A stretch of 64,000 bases of DNA from the human T2T-CHM13v2.0 reference genome, Homo sapiens: assembly GCF_009914755.1 (NCBI RefSeq), contig NC_060930.1, one strand, 5' to 3'. Shown piece after piece: positions 6,355-12,211 of this stretch. The position numbers and the translations under genes are program-made. The notes under the pieces are model-generated. The model ran no database searches. It worked only from the letters and a program-made list of their open reading frames with translations, and had not been told where the DNA came from. Within the stretch, counting starts at the first letter, position 1; each line of letters begins with the position of its first letter.

Positions 6355-9090
6355 TGATGGGGATGGCATTGAATCTGTAAATTACCTTGGGCAGTATGGC
6401 CATTTTCACGATATTGGTTCTTCCTACCCATGAGCATGGAATGTTCTTCCATTTGTTTGTATCCTCTTTTATTTCATTGAGCAGTGGTTTGTAGTTCTCC
6501 TTGAAGAGGTCCTTCACATCCCTTGTAAGTTGGATTCCTAGGTATTTTATTCTCTTTGAAGCAATTGTGAATGGGAGTTCACTCATGATTTGGCTCTCTG
6601 TTTGTCTGTTACTGGTGTATAAGAATGCTGGTGATTTTTGCACATGGATTTTGTATCCTGAGACTTTGCTGAAGTTGCCTATCAGCTTGAGGAGATTTTG
6701 GGCTGAGACGATGGGGTTTTCCAGATATACAATCATGTCATCTGCAACAGGGACAATTTGACTTCCTCTTTTCCTAATTGAATACCCTTTATTTCCTTCT
6801 CCCGCCTGATTGCCCTGGCCAGAACTTCCAACACTATGTTGAATAGGAGTGGTGAGAGAGGGCATCCCTGTCTTGTGCCGGTTTTCAAAGGGAATGCTTC
6901 CAGTTTTTGCCCATTCAGTATGATACTGGCTGTGGGTTTGTCATAGATAGCTCTTATTATTTTCAGATATGTCCCATCAATACCTAATTTATTGAGAGTT
7001 TTTAGCATGAAGTAGTTGTTGAATTTTGTCAAAGGCCTTCTCTGCATCTATTGAGATTATCATGTGGTATTTGTCTTTGGTTCTGTTTATATGCTGGATT
7101 ACATTTATTGATTTGCGTATATTGAACCAGCCTTGCATCCCAGGGATGAAGCCCACTTGATCATGGTGGATAAGTGTTTTGATGTGCTGCTGGATTCGGT
7201 TTGCCAGTATTTTATTGAGGATTTTGCATCAATGTTCATCAAGGATATTGGTCAAAAATTCTCTTTTTTGGTTGTGTCTCTGCCAGGCTTTGGTATCAGG
7301 ATGATGCTGGCTTCATAAAATGAGTTAGGGAGGATTCCCGCTTTTTCTATTTATTGGAATAGTTTCAGAAGGAATGGTACCAGCTCCTCCTTGTACCTCT
7401 GGTAGAATCTGGATGTGAATCCATCTGGTCCTGGACTTTTTTTGGTTGGTAAGCTATTGATTATTGCCACAATTTTGGAGCCTGTTATTGGTCTATTCAG
7501 AGATTCAACTTCAATCCCATCCCCATCAAGCTATCAATGACTTTATTCACAGAATTGGAAGAAATTACTTTAAAGTTCATATGGAACCAAAAAAGAGCCT
7601 GCATCACCAAGTCAATCCTAAGCCAAAAGAACAAAGCCAGAAGCATCACGCTACCTGACTTCAAACTATACTACAAGGCTACAGTAACCAAAACAGCATG
7701 GTACTAGTACCAAAACAGAGATATAGATAAATGGAACAGAACAGAGCCCTCAGAAATAATGCCACATATCTACAACCATCTGATCTTTGACAAATCTGAC
7801 AAAAACAAGAAATGAGGAAAGCGTTCCCTATTTAACAAATGGTGCTGGGAAAACTGGCTAGCCATATGTAGAAAGCTGAAACTGGATCCCGTCCTTACAT
7901 CTTATACAAAAATTAATTCAAGATGGATTAAAGACTTACATGTTAGACCTGAAACCATAAAAACCCTAGAAGAAAACCTAGGCAATACCATTCAGAACAT
8001 AGGCATGGGCAAGGACTTCATGTCTAAAACACCAAAAGCAATGGCAACAAAAGCCAAAATTGACAAATGGGATCTCATTAAACTAAAGAGCTTCTGCACA
8101 GCAAAAGAAACTACCATCAGAGTGAACAGGCAACCTACAGAATGGGAGAAAATTTTGCAACCTACTCATCTGACAAAGGGCTAATATCCAGAATCTACAA
8201 TGAACTCAAACAAATTGACAAGAAAAAGACAAACAACCCCATCAAAAAGTGGGCAAAGGATATGAACAGACACTTCTCAAAAGAAGACATTTATGCAGCC
8301 AAATGACACATGAAAAAATGCTCATCATCACTGGCCATCAGAGAAATGCAAATCGAAACCACAATGAGATACCATCTCACACCAGTTAGAATGGCAATCA
8401 TTAAAAAGTCAGGAAACAACAGGTGCTAGAGAGGATATGGAGAAATAGGAACACTTCTTTTACACTGTTGGTGGGACTGTAAACTAGTTCAACCATTGTG
8501 GAAGTCAGTGTGGTGATTCCTCAGGGATCTAGAACTGGAAATACCATTTGACCCAGCCATCCCATTACTGGGTATATACCCAAAGGACTCTAAATCATGC
8601 TGCTATAAAGACACATGCACACGTATGTTTATTGCGGCACTATTCACAATAGCAAAGACTTGGAACCAACCCAAATGTCCAACAATGATAGACTGGATTG
8701 AGAAAATGTGGCATATATACACCATGGAATACTATGCAGCCATAAAAAATGAAGAGTTCATGTCCTTTGTAGGGACATGGATGAAACTGGAAACCATAAT
8801 TCTCAGCAAACTATCGCAAGGACAAAAAAACAAACACCACATGTTCTCACTCATAGATGGGAATCGAACAATGAGAACACATGGACACAGGAAGGGGAAC
8901 ATCACACTCTGGGGACTGTTGTGGGGTGTGGGGAGGGGGGAGGGACAGCATTAGGAGATATACCTAATGTTAAACGAAGAGTTAATGGGTGCAGCACACC
9001 AACATGGCACATGTATACATACGTAACTAACCTGCACATTGTGCACATGAACCCTAAAACTTAAAGTATAATAATAACAAAATTAAAAAA
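6355..9090 (+). mobile_element. L1PA3/4-like, 5'-truncated and 5'-inverted (twin priming): inverted ORF2 segment 6355-7512 (-), direct segment 7510-9090 (+). Called L1-A below
   Basis: 15-bp TSD aagagataacaagca at 6340-6354 and 9091-9105; ORF2 RT peptides on - and C-terminal peptides on +; G-rich 3'UTR and A tail; ttc microhomology at the junction. Confidence 0.95.
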
Positions 9091-9220
9091 AAGAGATAAC
9101 AAGCAAATGGCCAGAACCAACCTGGACAATGAAACTTACCTCAATCTATCACCACGTCTACATTACTCTACAGTGATCAGAAATCTCTTCTCAAGGCAAA
9201 ATTCTCAATTATTATTGTCA

Positions 9221-9400
9221 GTGTGGGGAGGGAGCTGGGAGAGGGAGAGCATCAGGAAGAATAGCTGGTGGATGCTGGTCTTAATACCTAGGTCATGGGT
9301 TGATCTGTGTAGCAAACCACCATGACACACGTTTACCTTTGTAACAAACCTGCATGTGTACCACACATAAAATAAAAGTTTATGGTAAAAAAGAAAAAAG
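9221..9400 (+). mobile_element. Older L1PA (PA16/17-like) 3' end fragment
   Basis: gagagcatcaggaagaatagctgg...ttaatacctaggtcatgggttgatctgtgtagcaaaccaccatg followed by an A-rich tail. Confidence 0.8.
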
Positions 9401-10424
9401 AAATTTTTTTGTTCTTTTTTTACAGTAGCATGCTATTTCTAGATCACCTTTTTAAAAAAAGAGAATGAATACAACTCCACCAGGCACCCTGATGGACCAA
9501 ACCCAACACAATTCAAATATACTGAACTTAAGGATACACTGAGCATTTCAGAGCAACCCACTGTCCTGAACTGACAGTTCAAAAATGTATAGGAGTGCAT
9601 TCTGAGAATACAACTATATGATATTTTAAAAATTCTTTATTTTATGAAAAAACAATTTTAAACACAGGCAGACTACTTTGAACTTTGGATATAAATGTTG
9701 GGAAGAATGTAGGACCTTCTGAGGCAGGGACAGAACTAAACTTTAAACAGAACTAGCTTATTCCTGAAAGTGTTTAGTTATAGGTAGATACATTGTTCCT
9801 TTCTAAAGAAGCTATGACTAGACTCTCTATTAAATCTAAAATAGTGAGAATATGAATTGTATTTACAATAGAATACAGAAATTAATAAATTAAATGATTA
9901 TTAAAATACACGCATAATGTTGTAATGATAATTATTAAGAGCTGTGAATTGTCATTCATCTAGTTACCTCCACAACATAAAGCTCCTGTCTTAGTTCAGT
10001 CCATCTTTCATTTTCTTTTAATTTTTAACATGTGTCTTTTTCATTATTTGGGAGAGTTCTAGAATGAGCAAGACATCTTGCCTGTGTTCTTTTTAGACTA
10101 TCTTCACCCTGAGACAACAAAATCCTCCCTGACACATCTATCTCATATATACTTTGTAGTGGGGGGTTTAAAGCCATGGCCTCAAAATATTCAAGTGCAG
10201 TCATTTTCAAGCAATTTTCTCTGACTATCTTTTCCTCTGGGTTTTTTGAGGGTGTTAAGAACATGGTGCTGATGTTTCTACTTCCCTACCAAATGCTGTT
10301 CTAATGTTACCAGTTACCAACATATTCAAGCCACTCATTTTGTCTTTAACCACTTGATGTGTTTAACAGTTCCTTGGTTGCTTTAGTAAATTCTTTCCTT
10401 GTTTACCTCCCTGCCCCCTCTAGT

Positions 10425-10750
10425 AGATTTTCAGGGTTGCCATAAGAAAGCACCACAGATAAGTGGCTTGAACAACAGAAATTCATTTTCTCACAGTTCT
10501 GGAGGCCAGATGTCCAAAATCCATGTGTGGGCAGGATGACAGGATTGGTATCCTCTGAAGCCGTCTCCTTGACTTGTGAGAGACTGTCTCCTCCTTGTGT
10601 CTTTGCATGGTCTTCCCTCCATGCATGTTTGTGTCCCCATTTCCTCTTTTTTATAAGGACACCAGCCATGTTAGATTGAGGCCCACCTTCATGACCTCAT
10701 TTTACCTAACTTACCTTAATTACCTCTTTAAGAGACCTGTCTCCAGTCAC
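10425..10750 (-). mobile_element. MLT1B/C-like MaLR LTR
   Basis: aacaacagaaattcattttctcacagttctggaggccag...ttttataaggacaccagccatgttagattgaggcccacc. Confidence 0.8.
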
Positions 10751-11021
10751 AACCTTAAAGCAGGTCTTGGAAAATTACAAAATCAATTTTCAGAAACTTC
10801 ATGAACATTTATGTTTTCAAGCATGAGTATTATATGTAAATATACATCTCTTTTTTCATCAATTTGTGGCTTTTAAAATCATGCTCAGTTATAAGCATTA
10901 TACAAATTTTTCCCATTTCTTAATATACAAACCTTGAAACATTCTATAAATTAAAAAGCGTTTTGCAGCTTTTAGTGAAAAGGCATTGCATGGGAGGCCC
11001 TTATGCTAAAGATTAAAATTC

Positions 11022-12211
11022 CTTACACCTTATACAAAAATTAATTCAAGGATTAAAGACTTAAACGTTAGACCTAAAACCATAAAAACCCTAGAAGAAA
11101 ACCTAGGCATTACCATTCAGGACATAGGCATGGGCAAGGACTTCATGTCTAAAACACCAAAAGCAATGGCAACAAAAGACAAAATTGACAAATGGGATCT
11201 CATTAAACTAAAGAGCTTCTGCACAGGAAAGGAAACTACCATCAGAGTGAACAGGCAACCTACAGAATGGGAGAAAATTTTCGCAACCTGTTCATCTGAC
11301 AAAGGGCTAATATCCAGAATCTACAATGAACTCAAACAAATTGACAAGAAAAAGACAAACAACCCCATCAAAAAGTGGGCAAAGGATATGAACAGACACT
11401 TCTCAAAAGAAGACATTTATGCAGCCAAAAGACACATGAAAAAATGCTCATCATCACTGGCCATCAGAGAAATGCAAATCGAAACCACAATGAGATACCA
11501 TCTCACACCAGTTAGAATGGCAATCATTAAAAAGTCAGGAAACAACAGGTGCTAGAGAGGATATGGAGAAATAGGAACACTTCTTTTACACTGTTGGTGG
11601 GACTGTAAACTAGTTCAACCATTGTGGAAGTCAGTGTGGCGATTCCTCAGGGATCTAGAACTGGAAATACCATTTGACCCAGCCATCCCATTACTGGGTA
11701 TATACCCAAAGGACTCTAAATCATGCTGCTATAAAGACACATGCACATGTATGTTTATTGAGGCACTATTCACAATAGCAAAGACTTGGAACCAACCCAA
11801 ATGTCCAACAATGATAGACTGGATTAAGAAAATGTGGCACATATACACCATGGAATACTATATACAGCCATAAAAATGATGAGTTCATGTCCTTTGTAGA
11901 GACATGGATGAAATTGGAAATATCATTCTCAGTAAACTATCGCAAGGACAAGAAACCAAACACCACATGTTCTCACTCATAGATGGGAATCGAACAATGA
12001 GAACACATGGACACAGGAAGGGGGACATCACACTCTGGGGACTGTTGTGGGGTGGGGGGAGTGGGGAGGGATAGCATTAGGATATATACCTGATGCTAAA
12101 TGACGAGTTAATGGGTGCAGCACACCAGCATGGCACATGTATACATATGTAACTAACCTGCACATTGTGCACATGTACCCTAAAACTTAAAGTATAATAA
12201 TAAAAAAATAA
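11022..12211 (+). mobile_element. L1PA2-like, 5'-truncated (~1.2 kb). Called L1-B below
   Basis: TSD aaagattaaaattc at 11008-11021 and 12212-12225; ORF2 C-terminus, 3'UTR and A tail; ggcattacc and accagcatggc are younger-type diagnostics. Confidence 0.95.

What the first reader, a model, noticed from the sequence alone, without database searches (positions are those of the whole stretch)
8166..11747. Gene-conversion tract between two neighbouring, independently inserted L1s
Seen: L1-A (6355-9090) and L1-B (11022-12211) have different TSDs and differ at flanking subfamily-type sites (ggcaatacc vs ggcattacc; accaacatgg vs accagcatgg; gaaactggaaacc vs gaaattggaaata). Yet 8166-8621 and 11292-11747 are identical except for 2 bases over ~455 bp. 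They share variants absent from the other two L1s here: ORF2 nonsense codon tgcTAG (NNRC* instead of NNRCW), a 3-bp insertion (acacttcttttacac), aaaaagacaaac, aatcgaaacc, actggaaatacc, ggactctaaat. Outside the tract they also share gatctcatt and atagatgggaatcg. Known: L1 retrotransposition shows cis preference, so a source element with a stop codon is unlikely. Inference: post-insertion non-allelic gene conversion across 3.1 kb, making at least one copy a subfamily mosaic.
Basis: partly seen in the sequence, partly recalled or inferred. Interest (0 to 1): 0.8.

Follow-up and report, generated by a model that had tools for sequence, protein, structure and literature searches.

The report
Gene conversion between two neighbouring L1s
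Two old, separately inserted L1 retrotransposon fragments 3.1 kb apart in an EYS intron have exchanged a stretch of about 400 bp by ectopic gene conversion, a clean but ordinary example of a known process.

Summary
L1-A (6355-9090) and L1-B (11022-12211) have different exact target-site duplications. They differ at 41 events in 729 flanking columns (5.6%), but at only 2 of 456 positions in 8166-8621 / 11292-11747. A window that long with 2 or fewer differences arose in 2 of 200000 permutations.

The tract region is not slow-evolving. In 105 pairs of 15 independent dispersed copies, the tract/flank divergence ratio averages 1.05 (minimum 0.50). For A-B it is about 0.08.

The tract carries seven variants (six substitutions and a 3-bp insertion) that are rare or absent in 41 independently chosen copies. 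Exact k-mer counts over the whole T2T genome show that no other place combines them. An unnamed subfamily is therefore rejected.

L1-A's flanks carry one set of co-varying subfamily states, and L1-B carries the other set throughout. Inside the tract, A has B-type states. B is therefore the likely donor and A the mosaic acceptor.

A second short patch (8831-8897) probably also came from B. The conversion occurred late, in roughly the last tenth of the elements' residence time.

This is a new example of a known kind (neighbour Alu-Alu and L1-L1 conversion). Interest is modest.

The parts
6351..7512 (-). L1-A, inverted 5' segment (twin-priming-type inversion)
   Evidence: 6351-7512 matches the window's longer L1 at 32331 down to 31169 in reverse orientation (93.9% over 1164 bp). 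It overlaps the start of the direct segment by 23 bp., I1, shows the corresponding inverted repeat 6351-6373 / 7510-7532.
7510..9090 (+). L1-A, direct 3' segment (ORF2 C-terminal part, 3' UTR, A-rich tail). This is the acceptor copy.
   Evidence: 7510-9085 matches 32309-33875 (94.0%). One search gives the sequence with its A-rich tail. One search shows the ORF2-type reading frame.
6340..6354 (.). Left TSD of L1-A (AAGAGATAACAAGCA)
   Evidence: D8: exact 15-nt direct repeat with 9091-9105.
9091..9105 (.). Right TSD of L1-A
   Evidence: D8.
11022..12211 (+). L1-B, a 5'-truncated 1.2-kb 3' fragment. This is the donor copy.
   Evidence: 11020-12214 aligns to 7892-9089 at 96.0% overall.
11008..11021 (.). 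Left TSD of L1-B (AAAGATTAAAATTC)
   Evidence: D9: exact 14-nt direct repeat with 12212-12225.
12212..12225 (.). Right TSD of L1-B
   Evidence: D9.
8166..8621 (+). Main conversion tract in L1-A at its maximal extent. The minimal extent, by donor markers, is 8217-8590.
   Evidence: 2 differences in 456 columns against 41 in 729 flanking columns. Seven shared private variants lie here. A has SB-type states at 8305 and 8588.
11292..11747 (+). Homologous donor stretch in L1-B
   Evidence: second-best genome hit, 814 bits, directly after the query's match to itself.
8831..8897 (+). Probable second converted patch in L1-A at its maximal extent. The minimal extent is 8839-8865. The L1-B homologue is 11957-12023.
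   Evidence: There are no A/B differences. The shared variant 8865C is seen in 0 of 27 and 0 of 29 copies in two reference sets. 8857A is SB-type, found in 2 of 20 SA and 15 of 21 SB copies. The 37-mer 8834-8870 occurs only at these two places in the genome. The run length alone is not unusual.
9023..9049 (+). Possible third patch, weakly supported by one marker (9028T)
   Evidence: A's state T is found in 5 of 20 SA and 20 of 21 SB copies. The patch is bounded by the A-private variants 9022C and 9050A.
8928..8940 (-). Match to the degenerate PRDM9-type 13-mer in the G-rich 3' UTR of L1-A. It is absent from the homologous place in L1-B.
   Evidence: Any role in starting the event is speculation.

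Best explanation
After both L1 fragments had sat in this EYS intron for most of their residence time, a DNA break in or near L1-A was repaired by homologous recombination. The template was the misaligned, same-orientation L1-B 3.1 kb away, on the sister chromatid, the homologue or the same chromatid. The outcome was a non-crossover.

The repair copied 374-456 bp of L1-B (8166-8621 in A) into L1-A, including the private mutations L1-B had accumulated. It probably also copied a separate patch of 27-67 bp about 210 bp downstream. That patch could come from patchy mismatch repair of one heteroduplex, from template switching, or from a second event. L1-A became a mosaic of two L1PA sub-lineages and L1-B was left unchanged.

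Shown here: independent insertion, the identity anomaly, uniqueness of the variant combination, and the mosaic state of A. Inferred: the break, its location, the repair pathway, and single versus multiple events.
For: (1) Independent insertions. The two copies have different exact TSDs (D8 and D9) and different 5' structures: A has a twin-priming inversion, while B is simply truncated.

(2) Identity anomaly. There are 2 differences in 456 tract columns against 41 in 729 flank columns. The binomial P is 1.4e-9, and 2 of 200000 permutations reach the observed window.

(3) The region is not slow-evolving. A and B differ from copies chosen on their flanks by 3.9-5.0% inside the tract. In 105 pairs of 15 independent copies, the tract/flank divergence ratio has mean 1.05 and minimum 0.50; for A-B it is about 0.08.

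(4) Genome-wide search. For the tract, the neighbour is the best hit (814 bits) and the next hit scores 763 bits at 97% (40 of 3682 candidates scored). For the right flanks, all 39 listed non-self hits are dispersed copies at 95-97%, closer than the neighbour, which is not listed.

(5) Shared private variants cluster in the converted stretches. Seven lie in the tract (8217G, 8228G, 8355G, 8428A, the CTT insertion, 8537G, 8590C), each at 5% or less in 41 independently chosen copies. One lies in the patch and none in the remaining 661 bp, where about 25 variants are private to a single copy. Fisher's test gives 5e-7.

(6) Exact k-mer counts in the 3.1-Gb genome:
- the 8217G+8228G 26-mer occurs at 2 places, both here;
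- the patch 37-mer occurs at 2 places, both here;
- the insertion 27-mer occurs at 4 places;
- the nonsense+8437A 26-mer occurs at 8 places;
- the 8590C 21-mer occurs at 48 places.
No dispersed place appears in two of these lists.

(7) Polarity. A's flanks carry the co-varying 'SA' states: 7939C, 7941T, 7985A, 8753A, 8787C, 8794C, 8807C and 9002A. B is 'SB' at all of them. Inside the tract A has 8305G (1 of 12 SA copies, 10 of 15 SB copies) and 8588C (4 of 20 SA, 19 of 21 SB). In the patch A has 8857A (2 of 20 SA, 15 of 21 SB). No SA reference copy shows A's combination.

(8) The tract length fits published interlocus conversion tracts of about 200-500 bp (PMC3924818, passages read).
Against: - There is no outgroup. 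The state before the event is inferred, not seen.
- Reference copies were few (28, 29 and 12) and were picked by similarity to one segment, so frequencies in the selected segment are biased. I used only sets selected on a different segment for each count.
- Only 40 of 3682, 4530 and 3558 candidates were scored.
- Polarity rests on two diagnostic sites in the tract and one in the patch. Intermediate haplotypes exist among the references (L042, L048, L060).
- The second patch is not supported by run length. A 67-column difference-free run or longer arises in 113523 of 200000 permutations of the flank columns. One of its three markers, 8839A, is a recurrent CpG-decay state found in 16 of 68 copies.
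- Both differences inside the tract are on A. They may be new mutations or unconverted islands, so the date is only an upper bound.
- Subfamily names could not be assigned because no Dfam library was available. 'SA' and 'SB' are my own labels.
Confidence: 0.8

Rival explanations
1. The same ectopic gene conversion occurred, but in the opposite direction: L1-A was the donor and L1-B the acceptor.
For: The identity anomaly and the unique shared variants are symmetric and say nothing about direction. Some SA-type copies do carry 8588C (4 of 20) or 8305G (1 of 12), and intermediate haplotypes exist.
Against: The tract and patch states at 8305, 8588 and 8857 favour an SB origin. From the counts, the likelihood ratios are about 5.7 x 4.1 for the tract (my arithmetic for 8305; 4.1 printed) and 5.9 for the patch. 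B is SB on both sides and inside the tract, so B shows no mosaicism. No SA copy with 8753A combines 8588C, 8857A and 8305G.
Confidence: 0.08
2. Assembly or polishing artefact: reads from one copy were used to correct the other, or the two copies were locally collapsed.
For: Nothing positive from my calls. It cannot be excluded, because no reads or second assembly were available.
Against: The copies lie 3.1 kb apart with 5.6% divergent flanks on both sides of the tract, so they sit within single long reads and are easy to tell apart. The tract still holds two differences. A-specific and B-specific variants resume sharply at 8164/8165 and 8622. An artefact would not be expected to produce a separate 8831-8897 patch sharing rare variants.
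Confidence: 0.03
3. RNA-mediated origin. Either L1-A was born chimeric, by reverse-transcriptase template switching onto a transcript containing L1-B, or a cDNA of L1-B recombined with L1-A, as described for the yeast Ty and Tf2 elements.
For: cDNA-mediated conversion of chromosomal copies is documented for Ty and Tf2 (PMC6598467, passages read). The transfer is non-reciprocal, as seen here.
Against: The tract carries about 1.5% donor-private mutations and only 2 later differences, whereas A's own flanks carry about 2% private changes. The transfer therefore happened long after A inserted, which excludes a chimera at birth. L1-B is a promoterless 1.2-kb 3' fragment lying antisense to EYS, per the hub's gene table. 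The partner is the nearest L1, as expected for DNA-DNA repair by proximity (neighbour effect within 10 kb for Alu: PMC6598467 and PMC8230782, passages read).
Confidence: 0.03
4. No exchange took place. Both copies descend from one unusual source lineage (an unnamed subfamily) that carried the variant combination, and the tract is conserved by chance.
For: Each shared variant is seen singly in some dispersed copies: 4, 8 and 48 places for three of the k-mers. 8076C is common, at 598 places.
Against: No dispersed place carries two of the k-mers, and two k-mers are unique to this pair. The shared variants are absent from nearly all of the 41 independently chosen copies. Common descent cannot explain 0.4% divergence inside flanks at 5.6%. 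A and B differ at eight co-varying subfamily sites in the flanks.
Confidence: 0.01

Closest known systems
Non-allelic gene conversion between neighbouring Alu elements (Aleshin and Zhi 2010, as described in PMC6598467 and PMC8230782; passages read)
   Same: Independently inserted retroelement copies less than 10 kb apart are homogenised over part of their length. Non-diagnostic (private) mutations are shared between neighbours, and one copy becomes a mosaic of subfamilies.
   Different: Here the partners are L1 3' fragments, not Alus. The tract (374-456 bp) is longer than a whole Alu. This is a single dissected locus, not a genome-wide statistic.
L1-L1 gene conversion in double-strand-break repair (Tremblay, Jasin and Chartrand 2000, cited in PMC1920257) and the intra-chromosomal L1 conversion proposed for locus NCLI34 (PMC1920257; passages read)
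   Same: An L1 copy receives a stretch from another genomic L1 by homologous repair. The donor is identified as the best match, on the same chromosome.
   Different: Those cases are cell-culture events in mouse, or a complex non-classical insertion locus. Here both partners are ordinary TSD-flanked insertions, and the donor is the immediate neighbour.
L1 recombination-associated deletions (Han et al. 2008; recalled, seen only as a phrase match in the listing)
   Same: The substrate is the same: two same-orientation L1 copies recombining ectopically.
   Different: Those are crossover outcomes that delete the DNA between the copies. Here the 3.1-kb spacer is intact, so the outcome was a non-crossover.
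Clustered, discontinuous non-crossover conversion tracts in human meiosis (PMC4404656; passages read)
   Same: Converted stretches are separated by unconverted markers within a short interval. Patchy heteroduplex repair or repeated template switching are the proposed causes.
   Different: Those are allelic events seen directly in pedigrees. Here the event is ectopic and ancient, and it cannot be shown that the two patches arose in one event.

Membership tests
Non-allelic (interlocus) gene conversion tract | The two paralogous copies have independent origins and are not a duplication of one another. | tested here: met
   The exact TSDs differ (D8 and D9), as do the 5' ends and structures. The DNA flanking the two copies is unrelated.
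Non-allelic (interlocus) gene conversion tract | A bounded segment has significantly higher identity than its flanks (the GENECONV-type criterion). | tested here: met
   2 differences in 456 columns against 41 in 729. 2 of 200000 permutations reach the observed window. The control of 105 reference pairs gives a mean ratio of 1.05 and a minimum of 0.50.
Non-allelic (interlocus) gene conversion tract | Private, non-diagnostic mutations are shared inside the segment only, and are not found together in other family members. | tested here: met
   7 shared private variants lie in the tract, 1 in the patch and 0 in the other 661 bp. The k-mer combinations are unique genome-wide.
Non-allelic (interlocus) gene conversion tract | One copy is a mosaic of lineages (phylogenetic incongruence along the sequence), while the donor is unchanged. 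| tested here: met
   A is SA-type in both flanks and SB-type at 8305, 8588 and 8857. B is SB-type throughout. This rests on few sites.
Non-allelic (interlocus) gene conversion tract | The pre-conversion state is seen in an orthologue or another haplotype. | not testable with these tools
   No ape genome, second human assembly or read set was available.
Unnamed L1 subfamily sharing the variant combination | The same combination is present in many dispersed copies. | tested here: not met
   The best dispersed hit is 97%. No place is shared between the k-mer lists. The k-mers are found only in this pair.
Twin-priming (5'-inverted) L1 insertion, for L1-A | An inverted 5' segment is contiguous in L1 coordinates with the direct 3' segment, there is a small overlap or gap at the junction, and a single TSD pair encloses both. 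| tested here: met
   In the window's longer L1, the inverted segment maps to 31169-32331 and the direct segment to 32309-33875, a 23-bp overlap. The TSDs enclose both segments (D8).

The most novel reading that the evidence does not exclude
The main tract, the 8831-8897 patch and perhaps 9023-9049 are the product of one recent, discontinuous non-crossover event. It may be human-lineage-specific and possibly still polymorphic. It would have started at the PRDM9-type motif that sits in the G-rich 3' UTR of the acceptor (8928-8940) but is missing from the donor. If so, L1 3' UTRs would act as break sites that make L1 3' ends habitual recipients of sequence from neighbouring L1s. That would be a genome-wide homogenising process that distorts L1 subfamily assignment and age estimates, as already argued for Alu.
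Probability: 0.1. Interest if true: 0.5.

Novelty: new member of a known kind. Interest (0 to 1): 0.3.

Why it matters
The locus is a tidy, fully resolved example of ectopic conversion between L1 copies. It has defined breakpoints, a donor, an acceptor and a relative date.

Such events make a copy look younger or of a different subfamily than it is. Divergence-based ages and subfamily calls for L1-A would be wrong over a third of its 3' segment.

The event also leaves a 456-bp direct repeat of 99.6% identity, 3.1 kb apart, inside an EYS intron. That repeat is a better substrate for a small ectopic deletion or duplication than the original 94%-identical copies were.

None of this changes what is known about the process.

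Tried and rejected
- **Subfamily naming.** No L1PA consensus library was on hand and I did not type consensus sequence from memory. Instead I used dispersed copies from the same genome as references.
- **Donor polarity from mean distances.** The tract differs by 4.3-5.0% from A-flank-type references and 3.9-4.6% from B-flank-type references. This is not decisive, so I turned to co-varying diagnostic sites.
- **The first reference set.** L003-L030 were picked on similarity to the tract and proved biased. Single tract variants appear in 2-11 of these 28 copies, but in 0-1 of the copies in each set picked on the flanks. I did not use this set for tract frequencies.
- **Run-length test of the second patch.** It is not significant (113523 of 200000). 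The patch rests on shared rare states only.
- **8076C as a third shared marker.** Rejected, because it is common (598 places).
- **An error.** It counted two spurious differences at B's 5' end (43 of 731 flank columns). One search corrects this to 41 of 729, and the conclusions do not change.
- **Literature.** The searches found no paper describing this locus. They also found no genome-wide survey of conversion between neighbouring human L1s in the searchable library, but subscription papers are not covered.
- **A count I left out.** A genome-wide count of the 8865C k-mer was not run, because it would have overlapped a stretch already typed.

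
Full report
**The two elements**

L1-A occupies 6355-9090. Its 3' part (7510-9085) is in direct orientation. Its 5' part (6351-7512) is inverted and overlaps the direct part by 23 bp in L1 coordinates, which is the usual signature of twin priming (I1). An exact 15-nt repeat, AAGAGATAACAAGCA, encloses it (D8).

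L1-B occupies 11022-12211. It is a plain 5'-truncated 1.2-kb 3' fragment enclosed by an exact 14-nt repeat, AAAGATTAAAATTC (D9). Both lie on the + strand, 3126 bp apart. According to the hub's gene table they sit in an intron of EYS, which is on the - strand. The two are therefore independent insertions, not a duplication.

**The observation**

A global alignment (recounted) gives 43 difference events in 1185 columns:
- 13 of 273 left of the tract;
- 2 of 456 in 8166-8621 / 11292-11747;
- 28 of 456 right of it.

At the flank rate (41 of 729, 5.6%), the chance of 2 or fewer differences in 456 columns is 1.4e-9. A window of 456 or more columns with at most 2 differences arose in 2 of 200000 permutations of the columns. 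My first count included two spurious differences at B's 5' end, and one search corrects it.

The tract reads as the C-terminal part of ORF2 with a shared in-frame nonsense codon and a shared in-frame 3-bp insertion.

**Is the region simply slow-evolving?**

No. I took dispersed copies from the same genome that were chosen on the right flanks only: 29 by A's flank and 12 by B's flank. Inside the tract, A and B differ from these copies by 3.9-5.0%, much as in the flanks. Among the 15 of these copies that cover the whole 1.2 kb, 105 pairs give a tract/flank divergence ratio with mean 1.05 and minimum 0.50. For A-B the ratio is about 0.08.

**Is it an unnamed subfamily?**

No. A search of the whole 3.1-Gb assembly with the tract returns the neighbour directly after the query's match to itself (814 bits). 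All other listed hits score 763 bits or less, at 96-97% (40 of 3682 candidates scored, so this alone is not exhaustive).

With either right flank as query, the neighbour is not among the 40 listed hits. All 39 non-self hits are dispersed copies at 95-97%, whereas A and B differ at 28 events in 456 columns there.

Exact k-mer scans, which cover the whole genome, give:
- the 26-mer with 8217G and 8228G: 2 places, both here;
- the 27-mer with the insertion: 4 places;
- the 26-mer with the nonsense codon and 8437A: 8 places;
- the 21-mer with 8590C: 48 places.

No dispersed place appears in two of these lists. Each variant recurs now and then, but the combination exists only in this pair.

In the 41 copies chosen without regard to the tract, 8217G, 8228G, 8355G, 8428A, 8537G, 8590C and the insertion are each absent. 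8437A is seen once in each of the two sets.

A census of private variants finds seven shared by A and B inside the tract, one in 8831-8897, and none in the other 661 bp. In that remaining stretch about 25 variants are private to one copy only. Fisher's test gives 5e-7.

**Direction**

Among the 41 independent copies, a block of sites co-varies and splits them 20 to 21. I call the two haplotypes SA and SB, because no consensus library was available to name them.

L1-A has the SA state at 7939, 7941 and 7985 on the left and at 8753, 8787, 8794, 8807 and 9002 on the right. L1-B has the SB state at all eight sites.

Inside the tract, two sites separate the haplotypes, and at both A has the SB state:
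- 8305G is found in 1 of 12 SA and 10 of 15 SB copies;
- 8588C is found in 4 of 20 SA and 19 of 21 SB copies.

No SA reference shows A's combination. L1-A is thus the mosaic and L1-B the donor, with a likelihood ratio of roughly 20 from these two sites. The caveat is that only two sites carry this inference and that intermediate haplotypes exist (L042, L048, L060).

**A second patch**

Between 8831 and 8897 the copies are identical. A again has an SB-type state there: 8857A, found in 2 of 20 SA and 15 of 21 SB copies. A also shares the rare 8865C with B. 8865C is seen in 0 of 27 and 0 of 29 copies in the two sets not chosen on B's flank, and in 3 of 12 in the set that was. The 37-mer 8834-8870 occurs only at these two places in the genome.

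Between the tract and the patch (8622-8830), A keeps four SA states and its own private variants. If the patch was converted, the transfer was therefore discontinuous.

The run length alone is not unusual (113523 of 200000 permutations), and 8839A is a recurrent CpG-decay state. I rate the patch as probable, not shown. 9028T (5 of 20 SA, 20 of 21 SB) may mark a third small patch, and this is weak.

**Date**

The donor's tract held 7 private substitutions in 456 bp (1.5%) when it was copied. B's unconverted flanks now hold about 13-14 in 661 bp (about 2%). Since the event, 2 differences have arisen, both on A: 8304T, and 8514T at a CpG. That is 0.22% per lineage, with a Poisson 95% interval of 0.03-0.79%.

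The event therefore falls in roughly the last tenth of the elements' residence time, with an interval of about 1-40%. Using recalled hominoid substitution rates of about 1-2e-9 per site per year, the insertions are on the order of 10-20 Myr old and the conversion on the order of 1-2 Myr old, with a wide interval that includes the human-chimpanzee split. If the two differences are unconverted islands rather than new mutations, the event is younger still.

**Mechanism and rivals**

The best reading is homologous repair of a break in L1-A using the misaligned L1-B as template, resolved without crossover because the 3.1-kb spacer is intact.

Tract lengths of 200-500 bp are typical of interlocus conversion (PMC3924818, passages read). 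Discontinuous tracts are documented for human non-crossovers and attributed to patchy heteroduplex repair or template switching (PMC4404656, passages read).

The rivals are:
- the reverse direction, which remains possible;
- an assembly artefact, which is unlikely given divergent flanks within read length, but is untested;
- a chimera at the birth of L1-A, which is excluded by the late date;
- a cDNA template, which cannot be excluded by sequence but is disfavoured because the donor is a promoterless fragment that is also the nearest neighbour;
- a shared subfamily, which was tested and failed.

**Comparison with what is known**

Homogenisation of neighbouring Alu elements within about 10 kb by non-allelic gene conversion is established. 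It is attributed to Aleshin and Zhi 2010, as described in PMC6598467 and PMC8230782 (passages read).

L1-L1 conversion has been shown in break repair in cultured cells and proposed for single loci. The examples are Tremblay et al. 2000 and locus NCLI34, both as described in PMC1920257 (passages read). An older title, Burton et al. 1991, was seen only in a reference list.

My searches found no description of this locus. They also found no genome-wide survey of neighbour L1 conversion in the searchable library, which lacks most subscription journals.

The locus meets every defining feature of an interlocus conversion tract that I could test. The one I could not test is the pre-event state in an orthologue.

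**Verdict**

I extend it with a direction, a probable second patch and a date. It is a new, well-resolved member of a known kind of event. A specialist would find it neat rather than surprising.

Noticed in passing
window 6351-7532: L1-A is a twin-priming-type insertion. Its inverted 5' segment (6351-7512) and direct 3' segment (7510-9085) overlap by 23 bp in L1 coordinates, which produces the inverted repeat 6351-6373 / 7510-7532.
   Followed up: yes
One match lies in the G-rich 3' UTR of the acceptor L1-A, just downstream of the second patch. The homologous place in the donor L1-B has no match. Another match lies in the unique DNA between the two L1s.
   Followed up: partly
window 8304 and 8514: Both differences that distinguish L1-A from L1-B inside the tract create additional in-frame TGA stops in A's dead ORF2 reading frame. 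This is most likely coincidence, and 8514 is a CpG transition.
   Followed up: partly
window 8427-8429 and six dispersed places listed: The same nonsense codon, together with the neighbouring 8437A, recurs by exact 26-mer at 6 other places in the genome. The nonsense state alone appears in 10 of 28 copies chosen for similarity to the tract, but in 0 of 23 and 0 of 11 copies chosen on the flanks. It looks like a recurrent G-to-A change in a GG context. Whether that reflects cytidine-deaminase editing was not examined.
   Followed up: no
window 28439-33879 and 59029-62645: Two further L1 copies in the window align to L1-A at 94% and 90%. They show no elevated identity to A or B in the tract. The 59029-62645 copy also contains an inverted part (60476-61071 matches in reverse).
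   Followed up: partly
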